From IMG/VR virus record IMGVR_UViG_2667527818_000007: a stretch of DNA of 34,477 bases. One strand, 5' to 3'. Both the position numbers and the translations under genes were made by a program. Below the pieces are notes generated by a model, which worked only from the letters and a program-made list of their open reading frames with translations, was not told the origin of the DNA and ran no database searches. Origin of the DNA: a virus (lineage: Duplodnaviria; Heunggongvirae; Uroviricota; Caudoviricetes). Of the stretch, positions 3,895 to 27,431 are shown in pieces; within the stretch, counting starts at the first letter, position 1; each line of letters begins with the position of its first letter.

Positions 3895-4166
3895 GTATTC
3901 GTATTGAAATTGGCGAACGTTATGTCGTTACCAGTGACAGCTTTCAGTTTATTCTCCACGAGAAAAAGAGAGCTGAAAGCGGTAAAAACGCCGGTCAGGA
4001 ATGGCTGGCGGTGGTTGGTTATTACCCGAAATTAAGCCAGCTCGTTTCCGGCCTGATGCATCACGATATTCTGACCGGAAGCGCAAAGTCTTTTGCTGAT
4101 TTAAACGCGCAGGTTGAGCAACTCAGCAAGCGTTGTTCAGAGGCTTTTGGCTCATATGGCCGTTAA
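3891..4166 (+). CDS. early-operon hypothetical protein (91 aa)
   Basis: Coupled ORF upstream of gene A; position of P2 orf83. Confidence 0.5.
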   Translation: MSIRIEIGERYVVTSDSFQFILHEKKRAESGKNAGQEWLAVVGYYPKLSQLVSGLMHHDILTGSAKSFADLNAQVEQLSKRCSEAFGSYGR

Positions 4167-6432
4167 AGCCTCCGGGCGTTTTGTCCCTCCGTCAGCATTT
4201 GCCGCAGGCACCGGTAAGACGTTTACCGGTGCTTATGCATGGAACGCGCCACGCGAGGCCGTCGGGCGCGAAAGACCCCTTACACGTGACGAGATGCGTC
4301 AGGTGCAAGGTGTTTTATCCACGATTAACCGCCTGCCTTACTTTTTGCGCTCGCTGTTTACTTCACGGTATGACTACATCCGGCGCAATAAAAGCCCGGT
4401 GCACGGGTTTTATTTCCTCACATCCACTTTTCAGCGTCGTTTATGGCCGCGCATTGAGCGTGTGAATCAGCGCCATGAAATGAACACCGACGCGTCGTTG
4501 CTGTTTCTGGCAGAGCGTGATCACTATGCGCGCCTGCCGGGAATGAATGACAAGGAGCTGAAAAAGTTTGCCGCCCGTATCTCATCGCAGCTTTTCATGA
4601 TGTATGAGGAACTCAGCGATGCCTGGGTGGATGCGCATGGCGAAAAAGAATCACTGTTTACGGATGAGGCTCAGGATCACCTGTATGGTCATGTTGCTGG
4701 CGCTGCACGAGCTTTCAATATTTCCCCTCTCTACTGGAAAAAATACCGTAAAAGACAGATGACCACGAGGCAGGCATATTCTGCCATTGCCCGTCTGTTT
4801 AACGATGAGTGGTGGACTCATCAGCTTAAAGGCCAGCGTATGCGCTGGCATGAAGCGTTACTGATAGCTGTCGGGGAGGTCAATAAAGACCGTTCTCCTT
4901 ATGCCAGTAAACACGCCATTCGTGATGTGCGTGCGCGCCGCCAGGCAAATCTGGAATTTCTTAAATCGTGTGACCTTGAAAACAGGGAAACCGGCGAGCG
5001 CATCGACCTTATCAGTAAGGTGATGGGCAGTATTTCTAATCCTGAAATTCGCCGGATGGAGCTGATGAACACCATTGCCGGTATTGAGCGTTACGCCGCT
5101 GCAGAGGGTGATGTGGGGATGTTTATCACGCTGACCGCGCCGTCAAAGTATCACCCGACACGTCAGGTAGGAAAAGGCGAAAGTAAAACCGTGCAGCTTA
5201 ATCACGGCTGGAACGATGAGGCATTTAATCCAAAGGATGCGCAGCGTTATCTCTGCCGTATCTGGAGCCTGATGCGCACGGCATTCAAGGATAATGATTT
5301 ACAGGTCTACGGTTTGCGTGTCGTCGAGCCACACCACGACGGAACGCCGCACTGGCATATGATGCTTTTTTGTAATTCACGCCAGCGTAACCAGATTATC
5401 GAAATCATGCGTCGCTATGCGCTCAAAGAGGATGGCGACGAAAGAGGAGCCGCGCGAAACCGTTTTCAGGCAAAACACCTTAACCGGGGCGGTGCTGCGG
5501 GATATATCGCGAAATACATTTCAAAAAACATCGACGGCTATGCACTGGATGGTCAGCTCGATAACGACACCGGCATGCCGCTGAAAGACACTGCAGCGGC
5601 TGTTACCGCATGGGCGTCAACGTGGCGCATCCCGCAATTTAAAACGGTTGGCCTGCCGACAATGGGGGCTTACCGTGAACTACGCAAATTGCCGCGCGGC
5701 GTCAGCATTGCTGATGAGTTTGACGAGCGCGTCGAGGCTGCACGCGCCGCCGCAGACAGTGGTGATTTTGCGTTGTATATCAGCGCGCAGGGTGGGGCAA
5801 ATGTCCCGCGCGATTGTCAGACTGTCAGAGTCGCCCGTAGCCCGTCGGATGAAGTTAACGAGTACGAGGAAGAAGTCGAGAGAGTGGTCGGCATTTACGC
5901 GCCGCATCTCGGCGCGCGTCATATTCATATCACCAGAACGACGGACTGGCGCATTGTGCCGAAAGTTCCGGTCGTTGAGCCTTTGACTTTAAAAAGCGGC
6001 ATCGCCGCGCCTCGGAGTCCTGTCAATAACTGTGGAAAGCTCACCGGTGGTGATACTTCGTTACTGGCTCCCACACCTTCTGAGCACGCCGCAGCAGTGC
6101 TTAATCTGGTTGATGACGGTGTTATCGAATGGAATGACCCGGAGGTCGTGAGGGCGCTCAGAGGTGCATTAAAATACGGCCTGAGAAGACCAAACCGTCA
6201 GCAAAGAAACGGAAGCCCGTTAAAACCGCATGAAATTGCACCATCGGCCAGACTGACCCGGTCTGAACGATTGCAAATCACCCGTATCCGCGTTGACCTT
6301 GCTCAGAACGGTATCAGGCCGCAGCGATGGGAGATTGAGGCGCTGGCGCGTGGGGCAACCGTAAATTATGACGGGAAAAAATTCAGATATCCGGTCGCTG
6401 ATGAGTGGCCGGGGTTCTCGTTACCCATTTGA
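4156..6432 (+). CDS. A: rolling-circle replication initiator gpA (HUH endonuclease)
   Basis: HUH-type motif HHDGTPHWHMMLF and tyrosine-containing YIAKYISK. The tracked ORF starts at a TTG at 4114; the ATG at 4156 (MAVKASGRF...) is the more plausible start. Confidence 0.85.
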   Translation: MAVKASGRFVPPSAFAAGTGKTFTGAYAWNAPREAVGRERPLTRDEMRQVQGVLSTINRLPYFLRSLFTSRYDYIRRNKSPVHGFYFLTSTFQRRLWPRIERVNQRHEMNTDASLLFLAERDHYARLPGMNDKELKKFAARISSQLFMMYEELSDAWVDAHGEKESLFTDEAQDHLYGHVAGAARAFNISPLYWKKYRKRQMTTRQAYSAIARLFNDEWWTHQLKGQRMRWHEALLIAVGEVNKDRSPYASKHAIRDVRARRQANLEFLKSCDLENRETGERIDLISKVMGSISNPEIRRMELMNTIAGIERYAAAEGDVGMFITLTAPSKYHPTRQVGKGESKTVQLNHGWNDEAFNPKDAQRYLCRIWSLMRTAFKDNDLQVYGLRVVEPHHDGTPHWHMMLFCNSRQRNQIIEIMRRYALKEDGDERGAARNRFQAKHLNRGGAAGYIAKYISKNIDGYALDGQLDNDTGMPLKDTAAAVTAWASTWRIPQFKTVGLPTMGAYRELRKLPRGVSIADEFDERVEAARAAADSGDFALYISAQGGANVPRDCQTVRVARSPSDEVNEYEEEVERVVGIYAPHLGARHIHITRTTDWRIVPKVPVVEPLTLKSGIAAPRSPVNNCGKLTGGDTSLLAPTPSEHAAAVLNLVDDGVIEWNDPEVVRALRGALKYGLRRPNRQQRNGSPLKPHEIAPSARLTRSERLQITRIRVDLAQNGIRPQRWEIEALARGATVNYDGKKFRYPVADEWPGFSLPI

Positions 6433-6691
6433 GTAAAAACACAACGTAATTTGATATGGCATTGAATGGCTTATGCGGAGCAGTTATGGGGCAGCAGAAG
6501 GTCAATAGCATGCTGAATTAGAAGGCTAAATGCTATTGAGTGACTAGCATGTCGGTAAGGACAGCCGTTTGATCCGGGTCATAAAAGGCCATCCATTTAG
6601 TCTAATAAAATCATTGCGGGTAACCTTATGTCGACGCATAATTCGTCTTGAGCGAAGTCTTGTCAGTCTTTCATCGTATTGATGATGGGCG

Positions 6692-6722
6692 CAAAAAAAC
6701 CACCCTGGCAGGTGGTTTTTTT
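6692..6722. terminator. bidirectional intrinsic terminator
   Basis: aaaaaaaccacc-ctggca-ggtggttttttt: GC stem flanked by an A-run and a T-run; sits between the end of the A operon (+) and the 3' end of the small minus-strand ORF. Confidence 0.65.
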
Positions 6723-6734
6723 GTTTGAAGCATA

Positions 6735-6848
6735 TTAAAGCATAATGCTGACATTGATATTACTGACGTTTACTGACAAACCACTCGGACTACCGTTTGG
6801 ATAGCCAAAGAGGGCCAGAACGAGAATGCAGTAATAGCATTTCTTCAT
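6735..6848 (-). CDS. candidate small hydrophobic peptide (37 aa; MKKCYYCILVLALFGYPNGSPSGLSVNVSNINVSIML)
   Basis: ATG at 6846..6848 (minus) preceded by strong SD (caggaggcaat-ATG) and followed by the bidirectional terminator; hydrophobic N-terminus. The longer 88-aa tracked ORF is probably an upstream extension. Confidence 0.4.
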   Translation of the reverse strand: MKKCYYCILVLALFGYPNGSPSGLSVNVSNINVSIML

Positions 6849-7326
6849 ATTGCCTCCTGTAAGTAGAGGGCAACTTCCACCGGTATATGCGCTTCTTAGG
6901 TGGAATGACTTTTGAGCGAAGTCTTGCCCTGAAATAATGCTCTGTTTAAACGCAAAGTGATTTGGCATATCACCGAACAGAGAGCCGGAAAAACACAACA
7001 TATAGTATGTCGTTGTTTCTAGACATACATTCTATGTTGTGTAACAAGGGCTTTGCATTAAACATGTTTGAGATTTTATTGATGTAGCTCAAAGTAAAAA
7101 ACAGAGACTACGGATGATAAGGTCTTGAAAGCAATGTAAATTTTTTAAAGTTGCCAATTGCTTAAAAATGTACAGTTGCGGTATGGCGTACTTAAAAAGC
7201 TATGCATGCAACAAGTGAATGTTTTTGCATGCGTTGGGGATGTCCGTTCAGGCTGCGTGCGGTCAGGACTGGTGCGGATCCATAGTATCTATGCAACTGC
7301 ATTAAAACCGCCCTGTGAAGCGGGCG

Positions 7327-7345
7327 GGCGAGGCGGGGAAAGCAC
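7327..7345. other. cos site (19-nt cohesive-end sequence ggcgaggcggggaaagcac)
   Basis: Matches my recollection of the P2 cohesive end; located upstream of Q/P at the vegetative genome end, as expected. Confidence 0.6.
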
Positions 7346-7522
7346 TGCGCGCTGGCGGTGGTGCTGATTTTATTTTTTCAGCGTCTCAGCGTCTCAGCGC
7401 GTCGTGACGGCGTTTGGATTGTGCGCCGGGGCGTTGGTGTGTCTGCGGGGTGTTTTGTGCGGTGGTGAGCGTGTGAGGGCGTGATGACGGGGTGTAAAAA
7501 AGCCGCCCGCAGGCGGCGATGT

Positions 7523-19189: not shown

Positions 19190-21508
19190 ATGAGCACAAA
19201 ATTCAGAACCGTTATCACCACTGCCGGTGCAGCAAAGCTGGCAGCGGCAACCGCACCGGGAGGGCGGAAGGTCAACATTACCACGATGGCCGTCGGGGAT
19301 GGCGGTGGTAAATTGCCTGTCCCGGATGCCGGACAGACCGGGCTTATCCACGAAGTCTGGCGACATGCGCTGAACAAAATCAGCCAGGACAAACGAAACA
19401 GTAATTATATTATCGCAGAGCTGGTTATTCCGCCGGAGGTGGGCGGTTTCTGGATGCGTGAGCTTGGCCTGTACGATGATGCAGGAACGTTAATTGCCGT
19501 GGCGAACATGGCCGAAAGTTATAAGCCTGCCCTTGCCGAAGGCTCAGGGCGTTCGCAGACCTGCCGCATGGTCATCATCGTCAGCAGTGTGGCCTCAGTG
19601 GAGCTGACTATTGACACCACAACGGTGATGGCAACGCAGGATTACGTTGATGACAAAATTGCAGAGCACGAACAGTCACGACGTCACCCGGACGCCTCTC
19701 TGACCGCAAAAGGTTTTACTCAGCTAAGCAGCGCGACCAACAGCACGTCTGAAACACTGGCCGCAACGCCGAAAGCGGTAAAGGCCGCCTATGACCTTGC
19801 TAACGGGAAATATACTGCGCAGGATGCCACCACGGCGCGAAAAGGCCTTGTTCAGCTCAGTAGTGCGACTAACAGCACGTCTGAAACGCTCGCCGCAACA
19901 CCAAAAGCGGTAAAAGCAGCGTATGACCTTGCTAACGGGAAATATACCGCACAGGACGCCACCACAGCGCGAAAAGGCCTTGTCCAGCTCAGTAGTGCCA
20001 CCAACAGCGATTCTGAAACGCTTGCGGCAACGCCAAAGGCGGTTAAGACAGCGTATGACCTTGCTAACGGGAAATACACTGCACAGGATGCCACCACGGC
20101 GCGGAAAGGCCTTGTCCAGCTCAGTAGTGCCATCAACAGCGATTCTGAGACGCTGGCTGCAACACCAAAAGCGGTGAAGTCTGCCTATGACAATGCTGAA
20201 AAACGTCTTCAGAAAGATCAGAATGGTGCGGATATTCCGGGAAAGGATACCTTCACGAAAAATATCGGTGCCTGTCGTGCTTATAGCGGCGCTTTGAGCA
20301 CTGAAGCCGGAAACTGGACAACCGCTCAGTTTATTGAATGGCTGGATTCCCGTGGTGCATTTAATCATCCGTACTGGATGTGCAAAGGCTCCTGGTCATA
20401 TGCAAATAACAAAATCATTACGGATACCGGATGTGGTGATATCCACCTGGCTGGTTGTGTCGTCGAGGTCATGGGAACAAAATCTGCAATCACTATTCGA
20501 GTGACCACGCCGACAACATCAAGCGGTGGCGGTACAACCAGCGCGCAATTCACTTACATTAATCATGGGGACGGCTACTCCCCCGGCTGGCGTCGTGACT
20601 GGAATCGTCAGGGCGACGCAATGACCGGAACGATTAATCAGGATGGCGGAAGCCAGAATGCCTATATGTCTACGGCCTTATGTTCAGGCACCAGAGGCGG
20701 CAAAAAATATCTCAGAAAGTTTCGTGGTGGAGAAGGAGACACTATCTGGCATGAAACAGTGCAGGGCGGGGTAATTCGCTGGGCGACAGGAAACTATGAC
20801 GCTCAGGAAGAATTATCACTCAGCTCCGCTTATGGTCTCCGTTCTAGAGGTGAAATTACATCACTCAGTGCTAATGGTCTGCGCATTGCTTATGGCAATT
20901 ATGGATTCTTTATCAGGAATGATGGTGGCAGCACATATTTAATGCTGACGGCCTCTGGTGATAAATTTGGGACATGGAACGGTTTAAGGCCGCTGACTAT
21001 CAATAACGCTAATGGCGGAGTGTCAATGGGGCATGGCCTGAGTGTTACTGGTGATATTGCCTCAAGTACCAAAGTACGTGCCGGTAGCGGGAAAAAGTTC
21101 ACGGTCAGCAGCAGAAATACATCCACGAAGGAAGCCGCATTCAATTTGTGGGGAAACTCAAGTCGTCCTGTGGTGGCTGAATTAGGTGATGATGCAGGCT
21201 GGCATTTTTACAGTCAGAGAAATACAGATAACAGCATCACTTTTGCTGTTAACGGGCAGGTATCACCATCTAACTATAGTAATTTTGATTCACGCTATGT
21301 CCGGGATATCCGGCTTGGTGGTGCTGCCACATACAAACCTGCGAACAATGGCATGACATGGACACATCAGGCACCGTCCGGGTGTGTATATTCCGGCATT
21401 ATTGTTCAGGATACCGGCTCAAACTCTGCCGATAACATTGGTGGCATATATTACAGACCGGTGCAGAAATACATTAACGGGACATGGTATAACGTGGCGC
21501 AGGTATAA
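19190..21508 (+). CDS. H: tail fiber protein gpH (772 aa) with internal tandem repeats
   Basis: Conserved N-terminus, then about 3.6 tandem copies of a 41-aa unit and a variable C-terminal receptor-binding region; followed by G. Confidence 0.85.
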   Translation: MSTKFRTVITTAGAAKLAAATAPGGRKVNITTMAVGDGGGKLPVPDAGQTGLIHEVWRHALNKISQDKRNSNYIIAELVIPPEVGGFWMRELGLYDDAGTLIAVANMAESYKPALAEGSGRSQTCRMVIIVSSVASVELTIDTTTVMATQDYVDDKIAEHEQSRRHPDASLTAKGFTQLSSATNSTSETLAATPKAVKAAYDLANGKYTAQDATTARKGLVQLSSATNSTSETLAATPKAVKAAYDLANGKYTAQDATTARKGLVQLSSATNSDSETLAATPKAVKTAYDLANGKYTAQDATTARKGLVQLSSAINSDSETLAATPKAVKSAYDNAEKRLQKDQNGADIPGKDTFTKNIGACRAYSGALSTEAGNWTTAQFIEWLDSRGAFNHPYWMCKGSWSYANNKIITDTGCGDIHLAGCVVEVMGTKSAITIRVTTPTTSSGGGTTSAQFTYINHGDGYSPGWRRDWNRQGDAMTGTINQDGGSQNAYMSTALCSGTRGGKKYLRKFRGGEGDTIWHETVQGGVIRWATGNYDAQEELSLSSAYGLRSRGEITSLSANGLRIAYGNYGFFIRNDGGSTYLMLTASGDKFGTWNGLRPLTINNANGGVSMGHGLSVTGDIASSTKVRAGSGKKFTVSSRNTSTKEAAFNLWGNSSRPVVAELGDDAGWHFYSQRNTDNSITFAVNGQVSPSNYSNFDSRYVRDIRLGGAATYKPANNGMTWTHQAPSGCVYSGIIVQDTGSNSADNIGGIYYRPVQKYINGTWYNVAQV
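19718..20190 (+). repeat. about 3.6 tandem copies of a 123-nt (41-aa) repeat inside H
   Basis: LSSATNS(T/D)SETLAATPKAVKAAYDLANGKYTAQDATTARKGLVQ repeated; nucleotide copies differ mainly at synonymous positions. Confidence 0.85.
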
Positions 21509-21511
21509 TTT

Positions 21512-22036
21512 ATGCAGCATTTGATAAATATAACGGCGGGTAATCCAAAAACAGTTGAACAATATCAATTGACAAAGGGCTTTGATGTTGTCTGGTTTTT
21601 TACAGAAGATGGTAAGAACTGGTACGAAGAACAAAAGTATTTTGCTGATGACACGATAAAAATAGCGTACGACAAAGATAATATTATCCGCTATGTGGAA
21701 AAGGATGTGACAGCTATCAGGCCGGATGGATTAAGTGTTGTTGAAGTGCCGGATATTACTGCTAACCGACGGGCGGACATTTCAGGGGGCTGGATGTTTA
21801 AGGACGGCAAAGTGATTAAACGCATTTATACGGCAGAGGAATTACAACAGCAGGCAGAAATTCGGAAAGCCAGACTTCTTGCAGATGCTGAATCCGTGAT
21901 TTTGCCACTGGAGCGCGCTGTCAGGCTGAATATGGCAACAGATGAGGAGCGCAGCCGACTGGAAGCATGGGAACGCTACAGCGTTCTGGTCAGTCGTGTG
22001 GATCCTACAAATCCTGAATGGCCTGAAATGCCGTAA
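21512..22036 (+). CDS. G: tail fiber assembly chaperone gpG (174 aa)
   Basis: Immediately downstream of H; length close to P2 G. Confidence 0.8.
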
Positions 22037-22261
22037 TAAGTTGTATGAGCTTACATATCTATGGCACAGAGTAAATCCTAATCTGACAGTCCGCTCTGTG
22101 CCAGCTGCGGAAGTTTATAATATGTTTATGGAGTTTGGTGTAAAATCAATTAACTAATTGATTTATATTGATTTTGTTGTGGGGGGTAGCAAAGCATTGT
22201 TTTCAATGCAATATACAGATGAGTAAATTTTACTGCCTAATCTAATAGAGTGTAAGCCACA

Positions 22262-22302
22262 CATAAAAATTAACTATGGCTGATCATTATACAATCAGCC
22301 AT
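22262..22302 (-). terminator. probable intrinsic terminator of the 451-aa cargo gene
   Basis: 9-bp stem atggctgat/atcagccat (22276..22302) followed on the minus strand by a T-rich run, about 10 nt after the stop codon. Confidence 0.5.
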
Positions 22303-22311
22303 AGCTGAGAG

Positions 22312-23667
22312 CTATTTGTCACTAGCCATATCTTTCTTGCATTTTGGACATGGCACCAACATATCTTCTTTCACCAAGTAATAATATGGAATTATTATGC
22401 TATAACCCTGACAAGTTATATGTTCATATGCGATCGTTGGTGTCATATCTTCTTTATCATCGGATTCTATCGGAACCTCCCTAAACATTAATTCAGGTAG
22501 TGGTAAATCCTCTGGGTTATATAATGTCACCATCAATGGTTGTCTTTGGTATGCTTCCTCATTATTTGGAGTTTGACCTGAAGCCAAGTCGATTAACTTA
22601 ACCATATTAATCTGTTCATTGCTAACACAATAATTTACTAATGTATTTAAAGCTTTCTCTTTGAATAAACGATGATATGGACCGTGTGCTTTACAGTTAA
22701 TTAACTCATTAAACATGCCAAAATTAAATTCGTAAGAATAATCTCCAGCAGTTAAAGGTAGTCTATAATAATCACTTATATTTACATTCCCTTTTTGAGT
22801 ATTATTCAACAATGTAATCATTAAATTGTGGAAGTTAACTAAGGAACAACCATCACGATCAGGAAAGCCATGTACAATCATGTCAGTTGCATTAATCATC
22901 CTATCTGAATTATGACTCAGATATTCATTGTTGTTACCAAATAAAAAATAGCCTTTATTTAATATGAAAACTGCATTTGGTAGTAATTTTGTTTCATTAC
23001 TCTGGATTTCTTCCTTAAGAGCAGATACTATATCATCCCAGTGCATTTCTGTTTCATAAGCAAAAACAACTCCAAACCCTGCGAGTGATTTGTTATTTAT
23101 ATAAAATCCATGGTCATTCTTTTTTCTTTGTAGTTTTTTATATGATGCAATGTTTTTTATGGCGCTGCTTAATTCTTTCCTGGTAAGGTTTGATTTTACT
23201 TGAATAACTCCATATACATTTTCAGAAGGGTAAACATCATATATTTCGTTACGCTGCATTAGCACATATCCATCATCTGCATCATATAATGCGATGTCAA
23301 TCTCGTTGCTAAGATGTCCTGTAGCAGCAGCAACTCTTACGCTTCTTGAAGATACAGCATAACGCCCTGGGAATAAACCGCTTAATTTCAAGAAGTTTTT
23401 TAGTATATTTTCTCGAGCATTGCCTAAGTCTCTTGGATGGGATATATCCCTCGTTTTCTCGTATTCAAATTCAATATTTTTTTGAAAGTAATTCAGTTCT
23501 CTGATAATGCCATGAAAATCTCGTTCTTTACTACGAATATCGTTCACATGTTTATTTAAATTTGAAAAATACTCACGTATATTCATTTCCTTTTTATCAA
23601 ACTCTGCACGTCGTTCTTTTTCAGCTTTTGTTATCCGAACTTTCCTAGTTTTTTGTTGCTTAGTCAT
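22312..23667 (-). CDS. hypothetical protein (451 aa), partner of the SIR2-like gene; possible nuclease-like core
   Basis: Intact AT-rich ORF in the G-FI hotspot; charged Lys/Arg/Glu-rich N-terminus; weak PD-(D/E)xK-like pattern (IDIALYD...GVIQVKS, aa about 124-158); C-terminal Cys cluster (...CQGY...CPKC). Function not established. Confidence 0.55.
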   Translation of the reverse strand: MTKQQKTRKVRITKAEKERRAEFDKKEMNIREYFSNLNKHVNDIRSKERDFHGIIRELNYFQKNIEFEYEKTRDISHPRDLGNARENILKNFLKLSGLFPGRYAVSSRSVRVAAATGHLSNEIDIALYDADDGYVLMQRNEIYDVYPSENVYGVIQVKSNLTRKELSSAIKNIASYKKLQRKKNDHGFYINNKSLAGFGVVFAYETEMHWDDIVSALKEEIQSNETKLLPNAVFILNKGYFLFGNNNEYLSHNSDRMINATDMIVHGFPDRDGCSLVNFHNLMITLLNNTQKGNVNISDYYRLPLTAGDYSYEFNFGMFNELINCKAHGPYHRLFKEKALNTLVNYCVSNEQINMVKLIDLASGQTPNNEEAYQRQPLMVTLYNPEDLPLPELMFREVPIESDDKEDMTPTIAYEHITCQGYSIIIPYYYLVKEDMLVPCPKCKKDMASDK

Positions 23668-24141
23668 TATATATTAACCCTATTAATAAGCGTATAAGTA
23701 AAGAAGATCGTATCATATCAAATACTATCAAATTCTGAGAGCAGTTTTTATAATAGTCAATCATATAGAAAGTAAAATCCTCGTGCTCAGCCTAAATATC
23801 TGCGCCGAATATCACTACATTTTTCCAGACCACTCTTCCCCTAACCTCCGCTCCTTGCTCAGCGCGGACCTTCTGTCCAGTGAGGTAGTCCGCTACGAGC
23901 AAGAAGTGGACCATGTTGTACTAATTATTAGAGAGTAAATCATTATGTATCGGATTGAATCTTGACTCACAGGTGGCACAATGTTTTCATATTGTAATTT
24001 GTGTATATATGCAGATGGTTACAGTTTCAACTATGTTTTTGTAATTTTAAAAATAGAATTTATTGTTTGTTTATTGATGTGTTTGTATTAAAGAATTCAT
24101 TTTATAGCCCTCTATAGAGGGCTCTACAAAGATAGTCAGTA

Positions 24142-25656
24142 TTATTGTGACGAGTACCGTTTAAAATCATATAAGCTAACAAGTCTTTTATAATCTGAGG
24201 ATGATATTTCAAGGGTAACTCCTTCCCTCAAATATCCTTCGATATTATCAAGGTCAATATTGTTTACATATGTGTTGTAAAAAATAACTCGAACGAGTTT
24301 GTACGGTTTGAATCCGAGGGAAATGATTTCATCCACTGTGTCGCAGTTAATTCTTTCAGATTCATCAATAGAATTAAAATAGGTGGTAAGATTTGTTTCC
24401 TGATTATTTTTAAGTTGCTCAATATTTTGTATTTCATTACATATTGTGGAAAATCCATGCGCTGTAAAATACTGTGTTCGGGTTACTTTTATTTTATTTA
24501 ATAGCATGATTAGCGCATCATTTTTGGAGTCCATGATTTCAAAATAATTCATAACCATTTCGGATGCTGATTGATAATGGTAAGTTATTTTCTGCACAGA
24601 TCCAACAGCCATGACTAGTTCGTCATTAGCTAAGTTATCTAAATCACCAACTATTTTCACTTTAACAGTACCGCCTTCTTTTATTTTTCTCATTACTCCT
24701 TCAACCTTTCTAATATCCATAGATGATACTGGAAGTTTAAGGTTTATTAACCCCTCGAAAATCCCTTGAAAATTATCGGTTTTAATCTTGTTGATTTTAA
24801 TATTACCAATATTTTCGATAACCACATCATGTTCAAGCACTTCAAGGGAGTTGTTGTCTGCGTCTCGTTCAATAAGCAGAAAATTCTTTCTAACCTTATC
24901 GGCTAAATCGGAATCTTTAGGAATATAAGAAAAAATAGTTTTCAGAATCTCTCTGATATTCTCATCGCTTATGCTATAGCCGATAAATATAATAGGATTG
25001 TGAATGAATAAAGAAATGAGCTGGGCTCTAATTAAGTGATTATTGATTTTAAATCTTTCATAATCGGAATCTGAAATCACAATAGATTCAGGATGTGAAA
25101 CACAACCGTGTATTTTATATACAGATCCGTAAGGGTTACTTAGCAGAATATCATTCCCAATGATTGGATTAAACCCAATCAATGTCTCAATGAATCTATC
25201 ATAATTCGTTGTAATAACTGAGCCTATATTTCGACTTGCTTTTGCAAATAATTCCATTTCTGTTGCATACTTATCATCATCATTTATTTGATGTAGATCT
25301 ACAAGTTCAGATATAAATATTTTCATGCGACTGGCAGAGTAGTTTCCTGAAGCAGCATACTCGTAGTATTTGTCATTTATTCTTTTAAACTTACCGTTCC
25401 TATCAGCTTCTAATAATCTATTGAACTCTGTTTCAATTTCGCTAGCTACTTTTGGTAGATCAATTTCACCTAAAGAATTAGCGTTCCTGCCTGCGGAGTC
25501 AAAATAAAAGTCATGACTCCCTTTCATTTCGTAAACAATCTTTTTTAGAAGTTCTGACCATGAGTAAGTGCCTACCAGGTATCTCCGGCTAAACCCTGCA
25601 CCAACAAACACTACTGGATGGTTTACATAAGATTCCATGAATTCACTAATATTCAT
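24142..25656 (-). CDS. SIR2-like (sirtuin-fold) protein (504 aa) with an uncharacterised C-terminal domain; candidate NAD+-consuming defence effector
   Basis: Sirtuin-family signature order in the N-terminal half: VFVGAGFS (GAGxS, aa 19-23), TTNYD (aa 149-153), KIHG (aa 181-184). The C-terminal half of about 250 aa is not Gly-rich and not recognised. SD ggagaagg upstream of the ATG. Confidence 0.7.
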   Translation of the reverse strand: MNISEFMESYVNHPVVFVGAGFSRRYLVGTYSWSELLKKIVYEMKGSHDFYFDSAGRNANSLGEIDLPKVASEIETEFNRLLEADRNGKFKRINDKYYEYAASGNYSASRMKIFISELVDLHQINDDDKYATEMELFAKASRNIGSVITTNYDRFIETLIGFNPIIGNDILLSNPYGSVYKIHGCVSHPESIVISDSDYERFKINNHLIRAQLISLFIHNPIIFIGYSISDENIREILKTIFSYIPKDSDLADKVRKNFLLIERDADNNSLEVLEHDVVIENIGNIKINKIKTDNFQGIFEGLINLKLPVSSMDIRKVEGVMRKIKEGGTVKVKIVGDLDNLANDELVMAVGSVQKITYHYQSASEMVMNYFEIMDSKNDALIMLLNKIKVTRTQYFTAHGFSTICNEIQNIEQLKNNQETNLTTYFNSIDESERINCDTVDEIISLGFKPYKLVRVIFYNTYVNNIDLDNIEGYLREGVTLEISSSDYKRLVSLYDFKRYSSQ

Positions 25657-26118
25657 TTATCCTTCTCCATAACAGGAATATTTATAGCTGATAAAGCATA
25701 CAGCATCTTTGATGAAGATGCCTTCAATTTTGTTCACTCATCATCCTATTCTACCTGTTTCATGACACAACAAGCCCAGAACAGCAGTATGTATGCCATT
25801 GGGGGAGCATATGGATTCAATTAAGTTACGGTCAGAATATCTTACATTCATCCAAAGTGAGGCAATATATATAATTTAGCAAATTAACATTGTCACCACT
25901 GCCAGTTAGGGTTATGGGAATAAACAAGGCCTACAGGGATTCTTAGCAACTGTACCCACAGATCGTTGATAATAATCCTCTCAGTTGATTATTTTTCCTC
26001 AGATCACTGAGAAATACAGGCTATTTCCGCTTTACGCTCAAAGCAGACTGTCAGATTTGTTAGCGTTTGGGCTATGTAAATTGTCAGTTGGAAAATGAGT
26101 GAGTGCAAATCATGACAG

Positions 26119-26144
26119 GCAGGCGGATTACCCGCCTTTTCTTT
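26119..26144 (+). terminator. putative plus-strand intrinsic terminator upstream of the FI late promoter
   Basis: aggcgg-attac-ccgcct followed by ttttcttt; short GC stem plus U-run. Confidence 0.35.
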
Positions 26145-26240
26145 GTCTGTTGTTTCATCCACTGACCAGCTAGGTCAAATAGCGTCTCATGCACTGCACA
26201 ACAGAAAATAGTTGCACCCATTAACCACGGAGTTAAACGG

Positions 26241-27431
26241 ATGAGTGACTATCATCATGGCGTGCAGGTGCTGGAGATTAACGACGGCACCCGCGTCATT
26301 TCCACCGTATCCACCGCCATTGTCGGCATGGTCTGCACGGCCAGCGATGCGGATGCGGAAACCTTCCCCCTCAATAAACCGGTGCTGATTACCAATGTGC
26401 AGAGCGCAATTGCAAAGGCCGGTAAAAAAGGCACGCTGGCGGCATCGTTGCAGGCTATCGCTGACCAGTCAAAACCGGTCACCGTTGTCGTGCGTGTGGA
26501 AGACGGCAGCGGCGACGACGAGGAAACGAAACTCGCGCAGACCGTTTCCAATATCATCGGCACCACCGACGAAAACGGTCAGTACACCGGACTGAAAGCC
26601 CTGCTGGCGGCGGAGTCGGTAACCGGTGTTAAACCGCGCATTCTCGGTGTGCCGGGACTGGACACCAAAGAGGTTGCCGTCGCACTGGCATCAGTCTGTC
26701 AGAAGCTGCGCGCTTTCGGGTATATCAGCGCATGGGGCTGTAAAACCATTTCCGAGGTGAAAGCCTACCGCCAGAATTTCAGCCAGCGTGAGCTGATGGT
26801 CATCTGGCCGGATTTCCTCGCATGGGATACGGTCACCAGTACCACCGCCACCGCGTATGCCACCGCCCGTGCGCTGGGTCTGCGCGCTAAAATCGACCAG
26901 GAGCAGGGCTGGCATAAAACGCTGTCCAATGTCGGGGTGAACGGTGTTACCGGCATCAGCGCCTCTGTATTCTGGGATTTGCAGGAGTCCGGCACTGATG
27001 CTGACCTGCTTAACGAGTCAGGCATCACAACGCTGATTCGCCGCGACGGTTTCCGCTTCTGGGGTAACCGTACCTGCTCCGATGACCCGCTGTTCCTCTT
27101 TGAAAACTACACCCGCACCGCGCAGGTGCTGGCCGACACGATGGCTGAGGCGCACATGTGGGCGGTGGACAAGCCTATCACCGCAACGCTGATTCGCGAC
27201 ATCGTTGACGGCATCAATGCCAAATTCCGTGAGCTGAAAACAAACGGCTATATCGTGGATGCGACCTGCTGGTTCAGCGAAGAATCCAACGATGCGGAAA
27301 CCCTCAAGGCCGGAAAACTGTATATCGACTACGACTATACACCGGTGCCTCCTCTTGAAAACCTGACCCTGCGCCAGCGTATTACCGATAAATACCTGGC
27401 AAATCTGGTCACCTCGGTTAACAGCAATTAA
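26241..27431 (+). CDS. FI: tail sheath protein gpFI (396 aa)
   Basis: Same length and order as P2 FI. Confidence 0.9.
   Translation: MSDYHHGVQVLEINDGTRVISTVSTAIVGMVCTASDADAETFPLNKPVLITNVQSAIAKAGKKGTLAASLQAIADQSKPVTVVVRVEDGSGDDEETKLAQTVSNIIGTTDENGQYTGLKALLAAESVTGVKPRILGVPGLDTKEVAVALASVCQKLRAFGYISAWGCKTISEVKAYRQNFSQRELMVIWPDFLAWDTVTSTTATAYATARALGLRAKIDQEQGWHKTLSNVGVNGVTGISASVFWDLQESGTDADLLNESGITTLIRRDGFRFWGNRTCSDDPLFLFENYTRTAQVLADTMAEAHMWAVDKPITATLIRDIVDGINAKFRELKTNGYIVDATCWFSEESNDAETLKAGKLYIDYDYTPVPPLENLTLRQRITDKYLANLVTSVNSN

What the first reader, a model, noticed from the sequence alone, without database searches (positions are those of the whole stretch)
22037..26240. AT-rich two-gene cargo island in the P2 G-FI hotspot: candidate anti-phage system (SIR2-like + unknown 451-aa partner)
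Between tail fiber assembly gene G and tail sheath gene FI, where P2 carries Z/fun, this prophage has about 4.2 kb of visibly AT-rich DNA with two same-strand genes opposite to the late operon. This locus is a known variable hotspot for defence cargo in P2-like phages (established knowledge). One gene carries sirtuin-type motifs (seen in sequence); the partner has no obvious ATPase, TIR or RT signature. I see no HerA-like Walker A, no TIR-like protein and no Argonaute, so the pair does not fit the gene composition of the SIR2 systems I know (Thoeris, SIR2-HerA, DSR, short pAgo-SIR2). Defence function and novelty are inference.
Basis: partly seen in the sequence, partly recalled or inferred. 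Interest (0 to 1): 0.9.

Follow-up and report, generated by a model that had tools for sequence, protein, structure and literature searches.

The report
Two stacked single-gene phage-defence cassettes
The AT-rich island in this P2-like prophage is real, but it is most likely two independent one-gene anti-phage cassettes placed side by side (a SIR2 NAD-degrading enzyme and a NucC-like DNA nuclease), each bounded by its own short conserved DNA sites, rather than a new two-gene defence system.

Summary
Observation confirmed: window 22037-26240 is 30-37% GC against about 55-60% in the flanks. It lies between the P2 tail-fibre-assembly and tail-sheath genes and holds two minus-strand genes of 451 and 504 aa.

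The two genes are not a conserved pair. In 5,426 E. coli genomes they are adjacent only in 12 near-identical prophages, and each also occurs alone at about 96% identity in other prophages. None of 33 other DUF6602-family loci has this SIR2, and none of 49 other SIR2-family loci has DUF6602. The closest relatives are solo too.

Homology breakpoints fall on a ~23-bp palindromic site found at both island edges and at the inter-gene junction. The same sites bracket diverse AT-rich defence cargo in many prophages.

Verdict: ordinary defence cargo, new members of known kinds. The boundary sites are the more interesting by-product.

The parts
21512..22036 (+). Left backbone gene: P2 G-type tail fiber assembly protein (not part of the cargo)
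   Evidence: ORF; RefSeq annotation of the 99.9%-identical locus
22089..22111 (+). A-type boundary site GTCCGCTCTGTGCCAGCTGCGGA at the left edge of the island. It lies inside the 'left inverted repeat' annotated for the P2 Z-region.
   Evidence: inverted-repeat pair I1 (22080-22112 / 26025-26057)
22272..22306 (-). Terminator-like hairpin (16-bp stem) directly after the stop codon of the 451-aa gene
22312..23667 (-). 451-aa NucC-like PD-(D/E)xK nuclease (DUF6602). It has N-terminal helices, a NucC-fold core with D124/E149/Q156-x-K158, and a family-specific C-terminal domain with invariant C325, H328, C440, C443.
23732..23760 (-). Sigma-70-like promoter candidate (TTGACT-17-CAGAAT) about 65 nt upstream of the 451-aa gene
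   Evidence: consensus match only, not evidence of function
23847..23869 (-). B-type boundary site GTCCGCGCTGAGCAAGGAGCGGA at the junction of the two cassettes. The homology breakpoints to the solo cassettes fall here (23843 and 23869).
23888..23911 (+). Degenerate A-type site (GTCCGCTACGAGCAAGAAGTGGA), 19 bp from the junction B site; left end of the SIR2 cassette
24097..24132 (-). GC-rich hairpin (AGCCCTC-TATA-GAGGGCT) directly after the SIR2 stop codon; likely terminator of the SIR2 unit
   Evidence: pair I9
24142..25656 (-). 504-aa SIR2 protein, PADLOC PDC-S25 family. SIR2 NADase-type domain spans about residues 1-305 (N151, D153, H183 invariant). A conserved linker spans 306-360. The helical C-terminal domain (364-501) has no structural match.
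26026..26048 (-). B-type boundary site GTCTGCTTTGAGCGTAAAGCGGA at the right edge of the island. Homology to the solo SIR2 cassette ends at 26049.
26121..26137 (+). Terminator-like hairpin with a T-run in the conserved P2 flank, upstream of the sheath gene
   Evidence: this flank is conserved in P2-type phages
26241..27431 (+). Right backbone gene: P2 FI-type tail sheath protein (not part of the cargo)

Best explanation
The island consists of two autonomous one-gene anti-phage cassettes stacked in the P2 G-FI (Z/fun) cargo slot. Both are expressed from the strand opposite the late operon, so presumably in the lysogen.

Cassette 1 (about 22089-23869) encodes a stand-alone NucC-fold nuclease. Inferred mechanism: it is held inactive and is activated on infection, probably through a change in oligomeric state as in NucC. 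Its family-specific C-terminal Cys/His domain and N-terminal helices would provide the regulation that a cyclic-trinucleotide signal provides for NucC. Once active it cuts DNA.

Cassette 2 (about 23888-26048) encodes a PDC-S25 SIR2 protein. Inferred mechanism: the helical C-terminal domain senses a phage cue and triggers assembly and activation of the SIR2 domain. This hydrolyses NAD+ and aborts the infection, as in ThsA, DSR2, Avs5 and KomC.

Shown here: the fold and family assignments, conservation of the catalytic residues, the independence of the two genes, and the site-bounded cassette structure. Inferred: defence activity, the triggers, NADase and DNase activity, and abortive infection. 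The two genes were brought together by recombination at the shared ~23-bp boundary sites, not by selection for a joint mechanism.
For: Identity of the proteins:
- SIR2 matches PDC-S25 at E 1.9e-144 over residues 2-502 and Pfam SIR2_2.
- N151, D153 and H183 are invariant.
- D124, E149 and K158 are invariant, Q156 is nearly so, and the quartet C325/H328/C440/C443 is invariant.
- A DUF6602 single-gene system (Damona) protects against phage (bioRxiv 10.1101/2024.07.02.601686).

Independence of the two genes:
- 12 of 5,426 E. coli genomes carry the pair, all at 99.6% identity or more.
- SIR2 occurs alone in a lambdoid prophage, and DUF6602 occurs alone in 11 genomes next to an integrase.
- None of 28 genome loci or 5 other viral loci of the DUF6602 family has PDC-S25 within 10 kb. 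None of 49 other SIR2-family viral loci has DUF6602.
- The closest relatives (88% SIR2 from Erwinia, 82% DUF6602 from Citrobacter) are solo.
- No neighbour family recurs with either gene, other than phage backbone genes.
- Solo and paired copies differ with dN/dS of 0.15 (SIR2) and 0.37 (DUF6602) and have no stops.

Separate units:
- There is a hairpin after each stop codon and a promoter-like site before the 451-aa gene.
- Boundary sites occur at both edges and at the junction, and nowhere else in the 34.5-kb window (3 matches against 0.03 expected by chance).
- The homology breakpoints fall on these sites.
Against: No experiment shows defence by either protein, and PDC-S25 is only a computational candidate. 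Orthology to the validated Damona protein could not be tested, because no V. cholerae member was seen. In the nuclease, Q replaces the usual acidic residue of the (D/E)xK motif, so activity is assumed, not shown. The C-terminal domains of both proteins have no structural or functional precedent, so the 'sensor' role is conjecture. SIR2 residues 310-360 are conserved but poorly modelled. Independence in evolution does not exclude functional cooperation where the two are stacked. Two of 28 DUF6602 loci have some other SIR2-type gene next door (L028 ThsA-like, L030). I read this as defence-island clustering, but it is a weak hint of association at the domain level.
Confidence: 0.72

Rival explanations
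1. One reading: SIR2 and the 451-aa protein form one obligate two-gene defence system of a new type, with sensor and effector split between the two proteins, or with a SIR2-derived nucleotide activating the NucC-like nuclease.
For: The genes are adjacent, on the same strand and in the same AT-rich island. NucC enzymes are normally activated by a nucleotide second messenger (established knowledge; PDB entries 6p7p and 7zgv show cA3 bound), and SIR2 enzymes make ADP-ribose-type products. The pair is conserved at 99.6% identity or more in 12 genomes.
Against: Those 12 genomes represent one prophage haplotype. Each gene occurs alone at about 96% identity, intact and under purifying selection. There is no co-occurrence in 82 other loci of the two families or in the closest relatives. 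A 474-bp gap holds a hairpin after the SIR2 gene, a promoter-like site before the second gene, and a cassette junction site. PADLOC models PDC-S25 as a single-gene unit.
Confidence: 0.06
2. The two are independent systems that cooperate when stacked. This is non-obligate synergy: for example, NAD+ depletion plus DNA degradation could broaden the range of phages blocked or close escape routes.
For: Both are predicted abortive-type effectors with different targets. The stacked haplotype has spread to E. coli from pigs, humans, poultry, fox, mink and sediment.
Against: No evidence here bears on synergy. The stacked form is rarer than the solo nuclease plus the other cargo variants: 12 genomes against 978 that share the hotspot flanks. 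One genome carries an internal deletion of the island.
Confidence: 0.15
3. The cargo is not anti-phage defence. It could be lysogenic-conversion, addiction or toxin genes, or the SIR2 protein could act as a protein deacylase or ADP-ribosyltransferase on host targets.
For: No experimental data exist for either protein. Older GenBank entries label cargo at this locus 'putative lysogenic conversion protein'. Some A..B cassettes carry genes with no defence annotation.
Confidence: 0.08
4. The NucC-like protein is an orphan effector that listens to cyclic tri-adenylate made by a CBASS or type III CRISPR system elsewhere in the host, rather than sensing phage itself.
For: The whole NucC fold is retained (225 of 240 residues aligned). 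NucC is cA3-activated (PDB titles).
Against: No cyclase gene lies in the window or recurs near 33 family loci. The family always carries an extra, family-specific C-terminal domain (72 representatives in 1.84 billion proteins, all with the same architecture apart from fragments and one weak hit in a 1,777-aa protein) and N-terminal helices absent from NucC. Conservation of the cA3 pocket could not be assessed.
Confidence: 0.1

Closest known systems
PADLOC 'PDC-S25' (phage defence candidate, single gene; PADLOC-DB v2.0.0)
   Same: The 504-aa protein matches the model end to end (E 1.9e-144; residues 2-502 against profile positions 9-515 of 517). Like the model's definition, it occurs as a single gene in many mobile-element backbones.
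   Different: Nothing distinguishes it from the family. The family itself is only a computational candidate, and I found no validation in the searchable literature.
Single-protein and SIR2-effector NADase defences: DSR2, ThsA (Thoeris), Avs5, KomC (Kongming), SIR2-HerA
   Same: The SIR2 domain is homologous, with the N/D/H catalytic set. These are the nearest structures. The architecture of an N-terminal SIR2 domain plus a C-terminal non-catalytic domain parallels DSR2 and ThsA.
   Different: The protein is 504 aa against about 1,000 aa for DSR2. It has no SLOG domain, no STAND NTPase, no TIR, HerA, pAgo or KomA/B partner. Its C-terminal domain matches nothing (at most 268 residues align), and no DSR model hit it in PADLOC.
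NucC, the cA3-activated endonuclease effector of type III CBASS and type III CRISPR systems
   Different: The protein is stand-alone, with no cyclase nearby. It has an extra ~60-aa N-terminal helical region and a ~150-aa C-terminal Cys/His domain. Q replaces E in the ExK triad in most members. Whether it binds cA3 is unknown.
'Damona', a single-gene DUF6602 anti-phage system from the V. cholerae chromosomal integron (bioRxiv 10.1101/2024.07.02.601686)
   Same: Pfam DUF6602 domain. The same secondary matches to Cas PD_DExK and CBASS endonuclease models are reported for Damona. It is a single gene, and its homologs are reported in prophages.
   Different: No V. cholerae member appears in the 116-cluster full-length family, so it may be a different architecture sharing only the nuclease domain.
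P2 Z/fun-region variable locus with flanking inverted repeats (GenBank AJ512676-AJ512685; Nilsson et al. 2004, Mol Biol Evol 21:1, not readable here)
   Same: Same position between G and FI. The annotated 'left/right inverted repeats' of P2-EC67 align to the island's edges.
   Different: The cargo differs. Here two cassettes are stacked, with an internal junction site. I also find the same sites in non-P2 prophages and in tandem arrays.

Membership tests
PADLOC PDC-S25 (single-gene SIR2 candidate) | Full-length match to the family HMM | tested here: met
   PDLC04968 E 1.9e-144, 480 bits, residues 2-502 against profile 9-515/517
PADLOC PDC-S25 (single-gene SIR2 candidate) | Functions and occurs as a single gene with no conserved partner | tested here: met
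   Occurrence only was tested; function was not. The gene is solo in L001, in L209 and in 36 of 37 family viral loci. The recurrent neighbours are phage replication genes only.
PADLOC PDC-S25 (single-gene SIR2 candidate) | Demonstrated anti-phage activity | not testable with these tools
   The only literature mention is as a predicted candidate in a genome inventory
Thoeris (ThsA + ThsB) | ThsA with an N-terminal SIR2 domain and a C-terminal SLOG domain that binds gcADPR | tested here: not met
Thoeris (ThsA + ThsB) | Adjacent TIR-domain ThsB gene | tested here: not met
   The only neighbour is the NucC-like gene, with no TIR hit
SIR2-HerA (Nezha) | Partner HerA-type ATPase/helicase | tested here: not met
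   The partner has no Walker A motif and folds as NucC
DSR1/DSR2 | A single polypeptide of about 1,000 aa: SIR2 plus a long helical C-terminal sensor homologous to the DSR family | tested here: not met
   The protein is 504 aa. Homology to DSR2 is limited to residues 139-236. No DSR model appears among the PADLOC hits at E<=1.
Short pAgo-SIR2 (SPARSA) | Associated short Argonaute/APAZ protein | tested here: not met
   No such ORF lies in the island
NucC (CBASS / type III CRISPR effector) | NucC restriction-endonuclease-like fold | tested here: met
NucC (CBASS / type III CRISPR effector) | Catalytic D...E...ExK residues | tested here: inconclusive
   D124, E149 and K158 are invariant and align to NucC. 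The position before x-K is Q156 in at least 90% of members, and E in one.
NucC (CBASS / type III CRISPR effector) | Encoded with a CD-NTase or Cas10 cyclase that supplies cA3 | tested here: not met
   There is no cyclase in the window (all other genes are P2 backbone). No recurrent neighbour appears in 28 genome loci.
NucC (CBASS / type III CRISPR effector) | cA3-binding allosteric pocket and trimer-to-hexamer activation | not testable with these tools
   This needs a residue-level superposition or multimer modelling and binding assays
Damona (validated DUF6602 single-gene defence) | DUF6602 nuclease domain in a single-gene unit | tested here: met
   PF20247 E 4.5e-22; solo occurrence
Damona (validated DUF6602 single-gene defence) | Sequence-level orthology to the tested V. 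cholerae protein | not testable with these tools
   The sequence is not in the held text or supplement. No V. cholerae member was seen in the family.
   Adjacent only in one E. coli P2 haplotype (12 genomes plus IMG/VR locus L032). Absent in 82 other family loci and in the closest relatives.

The most novel reading that the evidence does not exclude
The ~23-bp sites have 7-bp inverted arms GTCCGCT/AGCGGAC around a 9-nt spacer and come in A and B variants. They bracket each of the two cassettes here. In more than 120 viral contigs they bracket, singly or in tandem arrays with about 41 bp between the start of one site and the start of the next, diverse AT-rich cargo that includes Old, retron RT-Toprim, Septu PtuA and Tmn. 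On this reading they are the recombination sites of a dedicated, integron-like cassette-exchange system that moves defence genes between unrelated enterobacterial prophages (P2-like, lambdoid and others). The stacking seen in this window would be one product of that system. The recombinase is unknown. Nilsson et al. 2004 proposed site-specific recombination for the P2 Z region, but the generality, the arrays and the defence content do not seem to be described in the literature I could search.
Probability: 0.3. Interest if true: 0.75.

Novelty: new member of a known kind. Interest (0 to 1): 0.35.

Why it matters
For the finding as stated, the value is mostly corrective: adjacency in a prophage hotspot is not evidence of a system. 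Here comparative genomics splits an apparent SIR2 + "unknown" operon into two single-gene units.

Each unit is still a reasonable candidate for experiment. PDC-S25 is a compact SIR2 protein with an unmatched C-terminal domain, a family of more than 2,000 clusters that has not been validated. The second gene is a rare stand-alone NucC homolog that appears to have replaced cyclic-nucleotide control with its own Cys/His domain. That could show how a signalling-dependent effector becomes autonomous.

The by-product matters more. Discrete conserved sites delimit defence cassettes across unrelated prophages. They offer a sequence handle for finding cargo slots and new defence genes, and a testable hypothesis for how such cargo is shuffled.

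Tried and rejected
- **NCBIfam** gave nothing useful for either protein.
- **Rfam** found no RNA family in the island at E<=1, so the long intergenic regions are not explained by a known RNA.
- **The sigma-70/terminator scan** is not enriched over shuffles (16 promoter-like sites against 20.3 expected). Individual sites are therefore only suggestive.
- **Damona's sequence or size:** I looked for it in the paper and its supplement and failed. The profile search and cluster look-up did not reveal a V. cholerae member.
- **Older literature:** Nilsson 2004 and Odegrip 2006 could not be read. Searching the literature for the site sequences, and for integron-like prophage cassettes, returned nothing relevant.
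- **SIR2-like neighbours in L028 and L030:** I considered whether they revive a SIR2 + DUF6602 association and rejected this. They are different SIR2 families (44-51 bits against more than 400 for true members). One is ThsA-like by its sequence (my reading; I ran no profile search on it), and in L028 the DUF6602 gene is split across reading frames.
- **Boundary sites as strong hairpins or terminators:** rejected. Folding energies are modest (z -1.0 to -3.8) and there is no T-run.
- **C-terminal domain of the nuclease as a reusable sensor module:** rejected. It occurs only in this architecture, apart from fragments and one weak hit in a 1,777-aa protein.
- **Recurrent neighbours of the SIR2 family as hidden partners:** rejected. 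They are SSB, a DUF2800 nuclease, DNA polymerase A and D5 primase backbone genes.


Full report
OBSERVATION

The window is a P2-like prophage. From 22001 to 26000 every 500-bp window has a GC content of 0.30-0.37, against 0.54-0.61 in the neighbouring late genes.

The island holds two minus-strand ORFs, at 22312..23667 (451 aa) and 24142..25656 (504 aa). They lie between a plus-strand 174-aa ORF ending at 22036 and a plus-strand 396-aa ORF starting at 26241. A 99.9%-identical E. coli locus is annotated in RefSeq as tail fiber assembly protein, DUF6602 domain-containing protein, SIR2 family protein and phage tail sheath protein.

WHAT THE TWO PROTEINS ARE

The 504-aa protein matches the PADLOC candidate family PDC-S25 from end to end (E 1.9e-144) and Pfam SIR2_2 (residues 146-269, E 4e-24). 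ThsA models match only the SIR2 part. More than 2,000 homolog clusters of about 500 aa exist across Proteobacteria, Bacteroidota and Firmicutes. N151, D153 and H183 are invariant in 35 of them.

The AlphaFold model (pLDDT 78.6) has three parts:
- a confident SIR2 domain (residues 1-305);
- a conserved but poorly modelled stretch (310-360);
- a confident all-helical C-terminal domain (364-501).

D124, E149 and K158 are invariant and align with the NucC active site. The residue before x-K is Q156 in most members. Relative to NucC the protein has extra N-terminal helices and a C-terminal domain of about 150 aa with an invariant C325-x2-H328 ... C440-x2-C443 quartet, which probably binds zinc.

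That C-terminal domain was found in only 72 representatives among 1.84 billion proteins. It is always at the C-terminus of proteins of about 400-460 aa, apart from fragments and one weak hit inside a 1,777-aa protein. The full-length family numbers about 116 clusters.

One paper reports a DUF6602 single-gene system, Damona, from the V. cholerae integron. It protects against phage and gets the same secondary domain matches. I could not obtain its sequence, so orthology is open.

ARE THEY ONE SYSTEM?

No conserved pairing exists.

- **E. coli genomes.** Among 5,426 complete genomes the SIR2 gene occurs in 13 and the DUF6602 gene in 24. They are adjacent in 12, all at 99.6% identity or more over the 4.2 kb.
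- **Solo copies.** The SIR2 gene also occurs alone (96.4% nt) in a lambdoid prophage, with an AbiH gene and hokD nearby. The nuclease gene occurs alone (96.2% nt) in 11 genomes; the one I inspected (L002) has it next to the integrase of a different prophage.
- **Selection.** The solo copies are intact. Against the paired copies, dN/dS is 0.15 for SIR2 and 0.37 for the nuclease.
- **Beyond E. coli.** None of 28 genomic and 5 viral loci of the nuclease family has a PDC-S25 gene within 10 kb. None of 49 other viral loci of the SIR2 family has a DUF6602 gene.
- **Neighbours.** No other neighbour family recurs with the nuclease. The recurrent neighbours of the SIR2 gene are phage replication-backbone genes.
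- **Closest relatives.** The 88% SIR2 in an Erwinia integrative element sits beside a UvrD-helicase/DUF2290 pair, and the 82% nuclease in Citrobacter sits between terminase genes. Both are solo.
- **One caveat.** Two nuclease loci have a different SIR2-type gene next door (one ThsA-like), which I read as defence-island clustering.

HOW THE ISLAND IS BUILT

BLAST breakpoints show that the solo nuclease cassette equals window 22060-23869 and the solo SIR2 cassette equals window 23843-26049. The 27-bp overlap is a conserved site.

The pattern GTCYGCNYTGWGCNNNNRGCGGA occurs three times in the 34.5-kb window at 2 mismatches or fewer: at 22089 (+), 23847 (-) and 26026 (-). Chance expectation is 0.03. 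At 3 mismatches a fourth, degenerate copy appears at 23888, and nothing appears elsewhere.

Each cassette therefore has an A-type site on one side and an inverted B-type site on the other. The same sites flank the solo cassettes in L001 and L002. The outer pair corresponds to the "left/right inverted repeats" annotated in old P2 Z-region GenBank entries.

A hairpin follows each stop codon, and a promoter-like site precedes the nuclease gene. This fits two separate transcription units.

THE SITES ARE GENERAL

- In 41 of 80 loci analysed, an inverted B-type site lies 0.6-5.8 kb downstream. In about a dozen loci, a B site starts 38-42 bp before the next A site, giving tandem arrays. One example surrounds a 42%-identical nuclease homolog in L085.
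- The 41 intervals hold 32 unrelated cargo families. In 37 of 41 the cargo is more AT-rich than its flanks (mean GC 0.37 against 0.47).
- Of 10 sampled cargo proteins, 5 match known defence proteins: Tmn, Old, retron RT-Toprim, Septu PtuA and Hp2.
- Conservation is confined to the ~23-bp site plus about 4 nt, across 65 distinct A contexts and 39 distinct B contexts.
- The hairpins the sites can form are only modest.

This supports the reading that the island is two stacked cargo units. It also suggests that cassettes are exchanged at these sites, by a mechanism (site-specific or short-homology recombination) that I could not determine.

MECHANISM (INFERRED)

The SIR2 protein most likely acts like DSR2, ThsA or Avs5. 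Its C-terminal domain would sense a phage cue, the SIR2 domains would assemble and become active, NAD+ would be depleted and the infection would abort.

The nuclease most likely acts like NucC, with oligomerisation-gated DNA cleavage. Its own Cys/His C-terminal domain and N-terminal helices would take the place of the cyclic-trinucleotide signal.

Both genes point away from the late operon, as expected for genes expressed in the lysogen. None of these activities was or could be tested here.

COMPARISON AND NOVELTY

The SIR2 gene is a member of a catalogued but unvalidated candidate family. It fails the defining features of Thoeris, SIR2-HerA, DSR and pAgo-SIR2.

The nuclease is a stand-alone NucC-fold protein that shares its domain with the validated Damona system. 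The G-FI/fun locus is already described as a P2 defence hotspot (PMC9519451).

The finding is therefore ordinary defence cargo: new members of known kinds, not a new two-gene system. Of 5,426 genomes, 978 share the hotspot flanks and only 12 carry this cargo, which illustrates rapid turnover. One genome carries an internal deletion of the island.

The most novel reading my evidence leaves open concerns the boundary sites, not the gene pair.

Noticed in passing
window 22089-22111 (+), 23847-23869 (-), 23888-23911 (+, degenerate), 26026-26048 (-); also L001 5003-5031 and about 7183-7207; L002 5024-5052 and 6782-6810; L085 8996, 10884, 10924, 12591, 12632: A discrete ~23-bp site (arms GTCCGCT/AGCGGAC, 9-nt spacer, A and B variants in inverted orientation) brackets each cassette. 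It recurs in more than 120 viral contigs around diverse AT-rich cargo, often in tandem arrays where a B site starts about 41 bp before the next A site. Half of the sampled cargo are known defence genes. The recombination mechanism and the recombinase are unknown.
   Followed up: partly
L088 (E. coli MN06021, NZ_CM129879.1), equivalent to window 22037-26240: An internal-deletion remnant of this same island: only 1,238 bp remain between G and FI, with the last 367 bp of the nuclease gene and no SIR2 gene. The cargo is being lost as well as gained.
   Followed up: partly
window 6433-7522: The other P2 cargo hotspot (the old/tin position, between the 772-aa ORF at 4114-6432, assigned as the replication gene from its position only, and the 344-aa presumed portal ORF) is about 1.1 kb. 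It contains no convincing ORF (longest 88 aa) and no copy of the boundary site, so the G-FI island is this prophage's only sizeable cargo.
   Followed up: partly
window 24577-24726 (SIR2 protein residues 310-360): This stretch (LPVSSMDIRKVEGVMRKIKEGGTVKVKIVGDLD...) is among the most conserved parts of the family, yet it is modelled with pLDDT of 32-42. It may be a segment that orders only on oligomerisation or ligand binding.
   Followed up: no
L209 1428-4182 (Erwinia billingiae, next to the 88%-identical SIR2 gene): The solo SIR2 homolog sits in an integrase/Ogr-Delta element beside a UvrD-helicase + DUF2290 gene pair. From memory, this combination was reported as an anti-phage system in the P4/P2 hotspot work. 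So the SIR2 cassette also travels in satellite-like elements.
   Followed up: no
L028 7706-9178 and L030 8178-9653: Two distant DUF6602-family loci have a different SIR2-type gene immediately adjacent: a ThsA-like SIR2-SLOG protein in Stutzerimonas, where the DUF6602 gene is split across reading frames, and another SIR2 fusion in Rhizobium. This is probably defence-island clustering, but it amounts to 2 of 28 loci.
   Followed up: partly
window 26121-26137 (+): A plus-strand terminator-like hairpin with a T-run lies in the conserved P2 flank after the island. If the late transcript that covers H and G ends only here, late transcription would run antisense through both cargo genes during lytic growth.
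   Followed up: no
window 19700-20400 (inside the 772-aa tail fibre ORF, 19190-21508): The tail fibre protein contains four near-identical tandem copies of a ~42-aa unit (...LSSATNSTSETLAATPKAVKAAYDLANGKYTAQDATTARKGLVQ...). These show up as long spurious ORFs on the other frames.
   Followed up: no
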